From Eledone cirrhosa (lineage: Eukaryota), in assembly GCA_964016885.1 (NCBI GenBank), contig OZ024746.1, positions 45,880,001-45,944,000 of the forward strand: DNA of 64,000 nucleotides, written 5' to 3'. A program made the translations under genes and the position numbers. The notes under the pieces were generated by a model that had not been told where the DNA came from, searched no databases, and saw nothing but the letters and a program-made list of their open reading frames with translations. Below are positions 8,751 to 54,842 of the stretch, piece after piece (the stretch's first letter is position 1; every line of letters starts with the position of its first letter).

Positions 8751-9784
8751 CTCCAATACTATGGGCATGTGGATAGAATGTCTCGGGAAAGAATTGCTGG
8801 ACAGATTTTATGTCAAAACCAACCAGTAGGAGACTCAGAGGTAAAGAACAACGAAAATGATTGGATAACATCCATGAGCTTGGTTGGTCTCATTTGCAGG
8901 TCCAGCTGGATTAGTTGGAGACAGTTGCTTCTGATAGGACCCACTAAAATGAGTGTTTGAGAATTCTTCCCCCAATAACCTCTCAGGAATAAGTGGGTGA
9001 AAAAGAAGAAAAAGAAGAAGGAGGAGGAGGTGTGGAAGAAGATTTAAATAAAATAAAATAACAAACTGTGTCTCATAGAATCAGACACATTTTAATGTGG
9101 GTTATCACCAATATCTTTCACTATCTTTAGCTTTTATCCAGGGAAAAGCAGACGTAAAATGATGATGATGATGATTTTCTTTCAGTTCCAGGTTTACATA
9201 TACCAAGAAAACATGGTAGATGGCATTCCAGTGATTTATTACAAACAGAATATATCTAGAACTACATTATCTGATGTATAACTTTTAAAGAAAGCAGGGT
9301 GTGACCTAAGGAAGATTTTACTGTATCTTGTAGGTCAATCATTCCCCCATTGAATATATTGAATATATTGAATTGTTCATGAATTTGCATATTCTCCTTA
9401 TACTCAAGCCATGCTAATCTCCTCCATATAACTCCAATTTTAGTATATATCATACCCAATAAATAAAGGTACATGCCTTCTCACACTCATAACAACATAG
9501 AAAAATTCATCCGGTTAGTGACAGCTGGAAAGCATTTTCCATAATAAAACTTTCCTGAAGATGTCATTTCTGTTAGCATGTGTGAAATATTTGAAATTAT
9601 GTACCATGAAAATAGACATGAGAAATAGTTGAATGCTTATATTATTATTCCTAATATATATGCTAGCAGGGAAAATGGCTGTTAAATGATAATATATTAT
9701 ATATGTATATATATATATATATATATGTGTGTGAGTGTGTGTGTGTGTGTATTGTTAATCAAAATAGGTGTGTTGACATGGCTA

Positions 9785-34680: not shown

Positions 34681-34904
34681 TAACCCTTTAGCATTTAAAC
34701 CGGCCGTATCTGGCCAGAATTCTCTCACCTCTTTCTGTTCAAACTGTCCGTAATCAGCCATTCATATTGACATTAAGGTATTGTTCTCAAATAAATATCA
34801 AAATATTATAGATTCGATATTATGTGAGATAATTGTGTAAGATAAAGACTTTACTAGAAAAATACAATAGTAAATATAGAGTAATGTAAATGCTAAAGGG
34901 TTAA
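34680..34904. mobile_element. piggyBac-type MITE, same family as 31741-31937
   Basis: TTAA-CCCTTTAGCATTTA ... TAAATGCTAAAGGG-TTAA, with shared internal sequence. Confidence 0.88.
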
Positions 34905-35488
34905 TTTTTCTCTCATCCTCTTTTTTCTCTTCCTATTTATAGTTTTAATATTAAAAAAATTCTTTATCATTGAACACAATCTAAACTGCGTCCAGAATAT
35001 ATGTTTGTTATCCCGTTTGTAAAATAAGTTGGATTACTTTGAATAAATAACTGTTTCTACTTTTTGGCACAAGGCCAGCAATTACCCAGTGCATTACTGG
35101 TACTTTATTTTATTGAACCCGTAAGGATGAAAGGCAAAGTCAACCTTAGCGGGATTTGAACTCAGATCATTAAGGAACGTAACTATGCTGGAAAGCATAG
35201 TTAAATAAAATAAAGTACCAGTAATGCACTGGGTAATTGCTGGCCTTGTGCCAAAAAGTAGAAACAATTATTTATTCAAAGTAATCCAATTTATTTTACA
35301 AACGGGATAACAAACATATATTCTGGACGCAGTTAAGATTGTGTTCAATGATAAAGAATTTTTTTAATATTAAAACTATAAATAGGAAGAGAAAAAAGAG
35401 GATGAGAGAAAAATTAACCCTTTAGCATTTACATTACTCTATATTTACTATTGTATTTTTCTAGTAAAGTCTTTATCTTACACAATTA
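34830..35488. repeat. 285-bp inverted duplication centred on a truncated minus-strand SINE A
   Basis: Arms 34830-35114 and 35204-35488 are near-identical reverse complements. The direct repeat ATTACTTTGAATAAATAA lies at 35033-35050 and 35485-35502. Confidence 0.92.
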
Positions 35489-36911: not shown

Positions 36912-36974
36912 TTTTTGTGCCTCTCCTTTGTTCTGTCCTACGGCATAGGACAGAACAAAGGAGAGGCACAAAAA
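36912..36974. repeat. Perfect 29-bp-arm hairpin with 5-nt loop
   Basis: TTTTTGTGCCTCTCCTTTGTTCTGTCCTA-CGGCA-TAGGACAGAACAAAGGAGAGGCACAAAAA. Confidence 0.95.
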
Positions 36975-36991
36975 AAAGAAAAGAATCCCCA

Positions 36992-37034
36992 GTCACTGAA
37001 GAGGTCACATAATGTGTGACGAAAGAACTTTGAC
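36992..37034 (+). ncRNA. Minimal hammerhead ribozyme-like motif
   Basis: GTCA-CTGAAGA-G-GTCACA-TAATG-TGTGAC-GAAA-GAAC-TT-TGAC. Stem I GTCA/TGAC and the 6-bp stem II both pair perfectly. Confidence 0.7.
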
Positions 37035-37526
37035 AATATATAAACAACTATCTGGTTGTGGAACCAACCAACCAACCAGAAATTTATAAATTCCTAAATT
37101 TATAAATTTATTATAATAAATTGAAGTGAAAGCAACTGGTGCGTGTGTTTCTTATTGGCAACATGACCCTCCCAAAGTATAACAATATCGGTTTCAACAC
37201 ACGATTTCAGATAAAGAAATCTTGCTAAACAAATTCAGAAACGATATATATATATACATATATATATACTATATATATATAATTATATATATTTATATAT
37301 ATTTATAGGTGCATGGCTGAGTGGTTAGAGTATTGGATTTGCAATCGTGTGATTGTGAGTTTGATTCCCGGACTGGGTGTGTGCTATGTCCTTGAACAAG
37401 ACACTTTATTTCATGCTGCTCCTTCTACCTGGAGTTGAGACCGATAGATAGTATAAGCAATTAGAAAGACCAATGGAAACATTGTTTCCTCGGTCCGATT
37501 TGACGAACATCGATTGACTGTCGATG

Positions 37527-42842: not shown

Positions 42843-45336
<2,494 letters not shown>

Positions 45337-54101: not shown

Positions 54102-54150
<49 letters not shown>

Positions 54151-54153
<3 letters not shown>

Positions 54154-54836
54154 TTGCAAGGTTTTTGATATGAAATCGTGTGTCGAAACAAATAATATTG
54201 TTATACTTGGGGAGGGTCTTATTGTTGTAATATTGCCAGAAATAATAACAGAACACGCTCACTGTTTGGTTGGTTTTCGCTTCTGTATCTTTTATATCTC
54301 CATAGTTAATTTATTTGGCAATCAATTTTTATCATTGATTGACACACTATTGAACAAAGATAGAATACAAAAACAAAAACACATACACTCAAACGCGAAC
54401 ACACACACCAAACATTATACACACATGCAAACACATGCACAGAGACAGAGACAAGAATAAATAAATAAATAAAATAAAAATGGCATAGAAATAACAATAC
54501 AATAGGAGGAAACATAATAGTACCACTGATGATGTTGCAGATATGCAACGAAAGAACTTTGATAGACTATATATATATATTTATTTATATCAGTTATATA
54601 CGGCTCGGAAAAATCTTTTTCCTAGAGCTAATTTACTGTAATGAGACTATTTTGAATTTCTAACTCAATACATGCTTTTGATATATTTATATCTGTATTT
54701 TTAACCGATTTTTAATGATTGCCAAATAAATTAACTATGGAGATATAAAAGATACAGAAGCGAAAACCAACCAAACAGTGAGTGTGTTCTGTTATTATTT
54801 CTGGCAATATTACAATATGACCCTCCCCAATTATAA

Positions 54837-54842
<6 letters not shown>
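54151..54842 (+). mobile_element. Penelope-like pseudo-LTR relic with inverted 5' copy of its 3' part, in (TA)n
   Basis: 54195-54324 is the reverse complement of 54716-54842, with a hammerhead-like motif between them. The terminal motif TGACCCTCCC.AA.TATAACAA is shared with 37164-37230. Confidence 0.65.
54521..54564 (+). ncRNA. Minimal hammerhead ribozyme-like motif
   Basis: TACCA-CTGATGA-T-GTTGCA-GATA-TGCAAC-GAAA-GAAC-TT-TGATA. Stem II is a perfect 6-bp pair; stem I has one mismatch. Confidence 0.7.

What the first reader, a model, noticed from the sequence alone, without database searches (positions are those of the whole stretch)
36912..37240. Hammerhead at 36992 and its relative at 54521 show fully compensated stems
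Seen: both share CGAAAGAACTTTGA and a downstream terminal motif (TGACCCTCCC.AA.TATAACAA). Stem II is GTCACA/TGTGAC in one and GTTGCA/TGCAAC in the other; stem I is GTCA/TGAC versus TACCA/TGATA. Both have one extra nucleotide after CTGANGA and a CUU triplet with a non-palindromic GAAC stem III. A perfect 29-bp hairpin sits 17 nt upstream of this copy. Inference: RNA structure was conserved while the families were active, and this may be an atypical core variant that needs dimerisation.
Basis: partly seen in the sequence, partly recalled or inferred. Interest (0 to 1): 0.7.

Follow-up and report, generated by a model that had tools for sequence, protein, structure and literature searches.

The report
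Weak hammerheads in Penelope retroelement ends
Both motifs are copies of the small hammerhead RNA motif already known from the ends of Penelope-like jumping genes, here in a variant predicted to cut itself only weakly and in pairs, and the upstream hairpin is likely a copying scar, so the finding is mostly ordinary, although younger sister subfamilies changed the predicted cut site in the same way twice.

Summary
The motifs are real. 36992 and 54521 are 5'-truncated ends (pseudo-LTRs) of two sister lineages of a Nematis-like Penelope retroelement: 1,229-aa ORF, RT plus C-terminal GIY-YIG, about 34,000 motif copies genome-wide. The shared "terminal motif" is the ORF start (MTLPKYNNI). The 29-bp hairpin is a copy-specific 5' fold-back.

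"Fully compensated" holds for stem II (one double change). It fails for stem I at 54521: pair 3 forms in 3 of 93 lineage-B copies.

The extra nucleotide, U17 and CUU already appear in Cervera and De la Pena 2014. Only the non-palindromic AA loop was not among their 56 examples.

New detail: six subfamilies differ at loop 3 (AA, AG, GA, AU) and position 17. U17 changed to A twice, each time in younger subfamilies, and the window's AA/CUU form has the weakest predicted dimer helix. 5' ends pile up 87-112 nt upstream of the cut site, not at it, so many copies likely came from uncut RNA. Cleavage is untested. The scan has noted uncut-template PLE hammerheads before on other DNA.

The parts
36912..36940 (-). 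Inverted copy of this insertion's own 5' end (fold-back arm of the 29-bp hairpin); copy-specific
   Evidence: Exact reverse complement of 36946-36974. Other copies have fold-backs of other lengths or none
36942..37243 (+). 5'-truncated 3' pseudo-LTR plus tail of a lineage-A (subfamily A1) Penelope-like element, between (TA)n tracts
   Evidence: 92% identical to the pLTR of full-length copy L086; 40 scored hits at 96-100%
36942..36950 (+). 5' junction, 89 nt upstream of the predicted cut site, at the AAGATGGCG motif where 5' ends pile up (likely transcription start region; YY1-like label recalled)
36992..37034 (+). Type I hammerhead motif A1: stem I GTCA/TGAC, CUGAAGA, extra G, stem II GTCACA/TGTGAC, GAAA, G-AA-C, CUU; predicted cut 37030/37031
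37163..37243 (+).
54147..54343 (-). Inverted 5' arm of the lineage-B insertion, carrying the tail
   Evidence: (I23)
54343..54836 (+). 5'-truncated pseudo-LTR of a lineage-B (subfamily B1) element, with a ~90-nt insert near 54592-54681
54516..54571 (+). Type I hammerhead motif B1: distal helix ATAGT/ACTAT, internal loop, CA/TG, CUGAUGA, extra U, stem II GTTGCA/TGCAAC, GAAA, G-AA-C, CUU; predicted cut 54559/54560
54817..54836 (+). ORF start of lineage B (MTLPKYNNI in intact copies) and short 3' end

Best explanation
The two motifs are type I hammerhead sequences in the pseudo-LTRs of two sister lineages of a Nematis-like Penelope retroelement, predicted to cut weakly and only as a dimer, and the hairpin is likely a fold-back scar of reverse transcription. 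Shown: a full element has one hammerhead in each pLTR, on the sense strand, about 4.1 kb apart, around an RT + GIY-YIG ORF; insertions end at the ORF start in (TA)n and are 5'-truncated, often with an inverted arm. Inferred: transcription starts about 100 nt upstream of the cut site; the two hammerheads of one transcript pair their 6-nt helix III segments (here A-U, G-C, tandem A.A, C-G, U-A) and occasionally cut after CUU, giving a unit RNA that may be circularised; the RT is primed at a TA nick and copies from the ORF start through the hammerhead; many copies, this one included, ran off at the 5' end of an uncut transcript and folded back.
For: Full-length copies L085/L086 have hammerheads 4,076/4,043 nt apart around a 1,229-aa ORF with RVT_1 and GIY-YIG hits. 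Lineage B has its own ORF, 67% identical over 652 aa. The core is invariant and stem II 100% paired in 14 representatives, with double changes in stems I and II. In contig run X1 the five variants at >=5% within 36992-37035 are two in loop 2, one in loop 3, position 17, and one that extends stem I; none is in a stem or the core (p=0.002 for 4 of 4). The architecture matches PMC4209133. 76 of 98 sampled lineage-A copies span the cut site and 93 of 98 have an (AT)n tract at the 3' end. 28 of 48 ends lying 36-200 nt upstream fall at 87-112 nt. 37 of 84 junctions abut an inverted piece of the same pLTR.
Against: No cleavage or expression data. The dimer helix of the AA form is predicted unstable, +2.4 kcal/mol, the worst of 16 loops. 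There is no excess of 5' ends at the cut site: 131 matches against 64 and 133 in control windows. Stem I in lineage B keeps only 2 proximal pairs. The covariation rests on 2-3 events and hand-picked rows, and the shuffle control ignores relatedness. The pile-up window was chosen after seeing the data, at least 4 pairs of ends come from one insertion each, and the start site is not mapped.
Confidence: 0.75

Rival explanations
1. The AA/CUU form is catalytically dead. The fold is kept as a binding site for the element's own protein or as part of the promoter/5' UTR, and A1 and B1 spread without cutting.
For: Worst predicted dimer helix. No pile-up at the cut site. 16,100 copies with this form. 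PMC4209133 reports low in vitro activity and does not rule out other functions. Naiads multiply without canonical hammerheads (PMC8557442 passages).
Against: All catalytic core bases are invariant across lineages whose RT-EN regions are only 67% identical. Position 17 is U, A or C in every subfamily seen, never G; G17 appears only as 2 of 100 listed copies. Younger subfamilies moved to A17.
Confidence: 0.17
2. It is a new hammerhead core variant that cuts efficiently as a monomer with the help of the upstream 29-bp hairpin or an alternative register (GU-closed 3-nt loop, bulged A2.1).
For: The hairpin lies 17 nt upstream and is very stable. The 3-nt-loop register can be drawn by hand.
Against: The hairpin is specific to this insertion and absent from full-length elements. 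The alternative register needs the run of three U, which A2, A3 and B2 (CUA/UUA) lack, while A2.1-U1.1 is invariant.
Confidence: 0.03
3. The stem 'compensation' is not selection: one CpG-type or chance double change was inherited by thousands of copies.
For: The swapped positions are TG/CA on both strands, and CG-containing intermediates exist (L033, L036). There is only one stem II event.
Against: A second double change sits in stem I pair 4 (G-C versus A-U). The core is invariant while flanks align poorly. Variants avoid stems.
Confidence: 0.05

Closest known systems
Minimal and small-helix-III type I hammerheads in pLTRs of metazoan Penelope-like elements (Cervera and De la Pena 2014, PMC4209133; main text parts 1-2 and supplement parts 1-2 read)
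   Same: CUGANGA + one extra nucleotide, G10.1-C11.1, 6-bp helix II, short helix I, complementary 15.2-16.2, U17, location in pLTRs. The Oikopleura row (G-AU-C-U-U) differs from ours by one base in helix III; CUU also occurs in Philodina and Chrysemys.
   Different: Loop 3 is AA (A1, A2, B1), AG (D) or GA (A3), not palindromic; I saw no such 2-nt purine loop among the 56 rows (read from PDF text with displaced columns). No cephalopod row.
Nematis clade of C-terminal EN+ PLEs (Craig et al. 2021, PMC8557442; passages, and Figs S2/S7 in the supplement text)
   Same: RT + C-terminal GIY-YIG, CCHH, a CX4CxxC linker with a short spacer, an IVERPG motif like Nematis IVEKPG, partial tandems, an inverted 5' copy, a tail at one end.
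   Different: Long Asn-rich N-terminal region (1,229 aa), TDKSG in place of DKG, a ~55-nt tail against 30-40. Clade not tested by a tree.
Animal non-LTR retrozymes (PMC7229834, passages; 10.64898/2026.07.22.740005, parts 1-2 of 5)
   Same: Type I hammerhead with a weak helix III, dimer model, link to PLEs.
   Different: These are truncated ends of protein-coding elements, not tandem non-coding monomers.

Membership tests
PLE pLTR type I hammerhead (Cervera and De la Pena 2014) | Core CUGANGA...GAAA...UH in type I order | tested here: met
PLE pLTR type I hammerhead (Cervera and De la Pena 2014) | Extra nucleotide between 9 and 10.1; G10.1-C11.1 pair | tested here: met
   14 of 14 rows
PLE pLTR type I hammerhead (Cervera and De la Pena 2014) | Long helix II, short helix I | tested here: met
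   6 bp; 4-5 bp in lineage A, 2 bp plus a distal helix in lineage B
PLE pLTR type I hammerhead (Cervera and De la Pena 2014) | Complementary 15.2-16.2 | tested here: met
   G-C 12, G-U 2 of 14
PLE pLTR type I hammerhead (Cervera and De la Pena 2014) | Palindromic loop 3 when present | tested here: not met
   AA in both window copies; met only in sister subfamily B2 (AU). Filed as a variant for this reason.
PLE pLTR type I hammerhead (Cervera and De la Pena 2014) | One motif in each pLTR of a full-length PLE, sense strand | tested here: met
   L085, L086, L247-L249
PLE pLTR type I hammerhead (Cervera and De la Pena 2014) | Self-cleavage as a dimer | not testable with these tools
   Needs an in vitro assay
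C-terminal EN+ Penelope-like element | Single ORF with RT followed by GIY-YIG with CCHH | tested here: met
   (RVT_1 hit below the Pfam cut-off on a 209-aa piece; one of two GIY-YIG hits above it)
C-terminal EN+ Penelope-like element | Partial tandem pLTR, inverted 5' copies, tail at one end | tested here: met
Nematis clade | CX2-5CxxC linker, reduced compared with Neptune | tested here: met
   CIDKKCITC then 7 aa to the next C, compared by eye with Fig. S2
Nematis clade | Phylogenetic placement of the RT | not tested
Non-LTR retrozyme | Tandem non-coding monomers of a few hundred bp | tested here: not met
   The repeat unit is ~4.1 kb and coding

The most novel reading that the evidence does not exclude
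The subfamily series records selection for a tuned, weak ribozyme. In two lineages the younger subfamilies independently replaced U17 by A17 and stabilised the dimer helix slightly (tandem G.A in A3, AU with G.U in B2, a fifth stem I pair in A2/A3), yet no large subfamily took a strong palindrome. Cleavage rate would then set the balance between short run-off copies from uncut RNA and long or tandem copies from a circular RNA, giving a natural allelic series for testing what PLE hammerheads do.
Probability: 0.22. Interest if true: 0.55.

Novelty: new variant of a known kind. Interest (0 to 1): 0.3.

Why it matters
The role of hammerheads in endonuclease-bearing Penelope elements is still open (PMC8557442 says so). 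This locus does not settle it. The family does offer six natural variants that differ by one or two bases at helix III and the cut site, with relative ages, copy numbers and near-intact parents. That makes 'does cleavage rate affect spread or copy length' directly testable. As a motif, the finding is a minor variant of a described class.

Tried and rejected
Rfam: no hammerhead hit at E<=1.

Expression: no RNA holder listed, so no evidence either way.

Fossil of cleavage: the junction-type pattern at the cut site gave 131 matches, against 64 (about 12 nt upstream) and 133 (about 25 nt downstream). Of 20 cut-site loci inspected, 13 were true junctions (10 starting at the first base after the site) and 7 were indels. 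The control windows were not inspected and TA microhomology confounds the count. No clear excess.

Link between predicted ribozyme strength and promoter-ended copies: the raw shares fall (A1 14/42, A2 9/40, A3 4/41, B1 5/34, B2 0/37). The trend disappears among copies shorter than 400 nt (14/31, 9/19, 4/13, 5/21, 0/6). Younger subfamilies simply have more long copies, which loss of long copies over time also explains.

Loop changes: 4 of the 6 possible single changes from AA stabilise the duplex, so 3 of 3 observed is not significant.

The GCCA/TGGC double change (D2) differs between two arms of one insertion and is not counted as selected.

The reversed control (5,889) exceeds the count and is uninformative; I relied on the listing.

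The ranking of triplets (CUU among the slowest, CUA somewhat faster) is recalled. PMC306830 is not held. PMC3138052, PMC544870 and PMC6908138 passages gave only the NUH rule, GUC/GUA as fastest, and knockdown at one CUU site.

The scrambled (type-SGC) hammerhead noted elsewhere in this genome does not apply; the order here is canonical.

Full report
Observation. Both motifs are at the stated places. 36992 reads GTCA CTGAAGA G GTCACA taatg TGTGAC GAAA G AA C T T TGAC. 54521 reads TACCA CTGATGA T GTTGCA gata TGCAAC GAAA G AA C T T TGATA. In hammerhead numbering A15.1-U16.1 and G15.2-C16.2 enclose a 2-nt AA loop and the triplet is CUU. The hairpin is a perfect 29 bp with a 5-nt loop, 17 nt upstream. 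The pattern has 16,100 genome matches and 0 in the reversed control. 'Fully compensated' fails for stem I of 54521: across 93 lineage-B copies, pairs 1-5 form in 91, 87, 3, 62 and 26, and folding gives 2 bp, an internal loop and a distal helix.

What carries the motif. The window lies in a 3.0-Gb animal genome. 36945-37240 has 1,306 candidates, the 40 scored at 96-100% identity; 54480-54840 has 4,312. Longer copies run into an RT + GIY-YIG ORF. Of eight long-ORF loci fetched, L085 and L086 are complete partial tandems with hammerheads 4,076 and 4,043 nt apart; L085 encodes 1,229 aa starting MTLPKYNNI. Lineage B has the same start and its own ORF, 67% identical over 652 aa. The closest named protein is an Octopus vulgaris hypothetical protein (65% by blastp), so the host is probably an octopod (inference). 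The short CX4CxxC linker and the IVERPG motif match the Nematis rows rather than the Neptune rows of PMC8557442 Figs S2/S7 by eye; no tree was built. In the first 100 places (98 distinct copies), 93 have an (AT)n tract at the 3' end, 54 carry the long tail and 44 stop at TATAACAAT.

The hairpin. Its upstream arm is the reverse complement of this copy's own first bases, and it abuts a TA tract. Other copies have fold-backs of other lengths or none. 37 of 84 lineage-A junctions mapped within 600 nt abut an inverted piece of the same pLTR. Inverted 5' copies and one-sided tails are described as typical of PLEs (PMC8557442 passage). The hairpin is therefore an insertion scar (inference) and not part of the ribozyme.

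Conservation of the fold. Four disjoint patterns give 16,100 (AA/CUU), 6,181 (95 of the first 100 CUA), 7,400 (about 75 of 100 AU/UUA, about 17 AG/CUU) and 4,413 (90 of 100 GA/CUA) matches. That is about 34,000 in all, with both arms of inverted insertions counted (listings counted by eye; the control is uninformative). In 14 hand-picked representatives the core is invariant, stem II is paired in all cells with two double-changed pairs, and stem I is 78% paired; 0 of 500 shuffles reach the covariation score, but relatedness is not controlled. The stem II swap is one event inside lineage B, and single copies show G.U intermediates. In contig run X1, which may not be independent of this genome, the variants at >=5% in the motif are 37010, 37012 (loop 2), 37027 (loop 3), 37030 (position 17) and 37035 (adds a fifth stem I pair).

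Subfamily series. From 205 pattern-sampled copies (200 in six groups, 5 singletons left out), the median divergence from the group majority is D 7.3% (n=4), B1 3.4% (26), A1 2.3% (40), B2 1.7% (36), A2 1.6% (39), A3 1.0% (41). A tree of up to eight copies per group (44 rows) groups A2+A3 (98/96) and nests B2 inside B1 (99/96). So CUU is the older state and A17 arose twice. Predicted energies of the 6-bp dimer helix are AA +2.4, B2 +0.2, AG -0.4 and GA -1.7 kcal/mol, against -5.0 for a perfect AGAUCU; AA is the worst of 16 loops. Both window copies belong to the AA/CUU form. These few changes do not by themselves prove selection on rate, because most single changes from AA stabilise the helix.

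How copies were made. 76 of 98 copies span the predicted cut site, so their template was uncut or re-ligated there. Among 123 lineage-A copies, 28 of the 48 ends lying 36-200 nt upstream fall at 87-112 nt (1.08 per nt against 0.18 and 0.13 on either side). The window was chosen after the fact and some ends are two arms of one insertion. This position holds AAGATGGCG, and the window copy ends there (-89). Penelope has an internal promoter in its pLTR (PMC2377424 passages). A circle has no end, so a pile-up here points to run-off at the 5' end of an uncut linear transcript (inference; an RT pause site is the alternative). There is no clear excess at the cut site (131 against 64 and 133). Against a link to ribozyme strength, the fall in promoter-ended copies in younger subfamilies disappears among short copies. 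A three-unit 4,147-nt array sharing one frameshift fits, but does not prove, the circular-template model.

Comparison with what is known. PMC4209133 (parts 1-2 of the main text and parts 1-2 of the supplement read) describes pLTR hammerheads with the extra nucleotide as consensus, long helix II, short helix I, small palindromic helix III variants, weak cleavage only in dimers, and the circular-RNA model. Its Fig. S3 lists many U17 motifs, with CUU in Philodina, Chrysemys and Oikopleura. I saw no AA, AG or GA loop among the 56 rows, read from PDF text with displaced columns. Searches for hammerhead + Penelope-like + octopus or cephalopod returned only PMC8557442, whose supplement lists octopus Naiad and Hydra families, not this one, in the rows shown. 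PMC13282606 lists Penelope-like families in O. vulgaris and has no 'ribozyme' passage. The family may be in Repbase or Dfam, which I could not search. bioRxiv supplements were closed. Earlier scan notes report uncut-template PLE hammerheads in other genomes and fold-back PLE ends in this one; I reached the junction result before reading them, and they are not independent support.

Verdict. A real, structurally conserved PLE hammerhead; a minor variant (non-palindromic purine loop 3) of a described kind; cleavage untested. The subfamily series is the most useful by-product. Interest 0.3.

Noticed in passing
L247/L248 (G000:C1:14381000-14397000): Head-to-tail array of three 4,147-nt B2 units, 99.9% identical, sharing one frameshift, capped by an inverted 5' arm; fits more-than-unit copying of one template or DNA duplication.
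   Followed up: partly
pLTR of lineages A and B, 90-140 nt upstream of the cut site (e.g. L085): GCATGCGCA and AAGATGGCG/AAAATGGCG motifs are kept in both lineages although the spacers differ; they resemble NRF1 and YY1 sites (labels recalled).
   Followed up: partly
genome-wide: Other large families of minimal hammerheads with GAAACGUU/GAAACGUC and GAAAAUUA cores (35,067 overlapping matches against 1,771 control).
   Followed up: no
window 42880-45179: Large nested inverted repeat (arms 95-97% complementary) between simple repeats, with GGGTCGAAAC near its outer end; possibly another PLE-type two-armed insertion.
   Followed up: no
window 34830-35488: 289-bp 99% inverted repeat whose centre holds part of the SINE-like repeat seen six times in the window.
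   Followed up: no
window 9361-9463 (-): U6 snRNA-like copy above the Rfam gathering score (47.4 against 44 bits), probably a retrocopy.
   Followed up: no
window 54592-54681: A ~90-nt piece inserted in the TA tract of the B copy, shared with L032-L034.
   Followed up: no
L124 (G000:C1:2760012): An older relative (46% amino-acid identity to lineage A) with a CUC triplet, an A-type stem II and a B-type stem I, suggesting GTCACA/TGTGAC is ancestral.
   Followed up: partly
run X1: The A3 loop variant is about 1.4% of depth in this run, against about 4,400 of 34,000 motifs in G000, as if A3 expanded very recently; contig depth is a poor measure.
   Followed up: no
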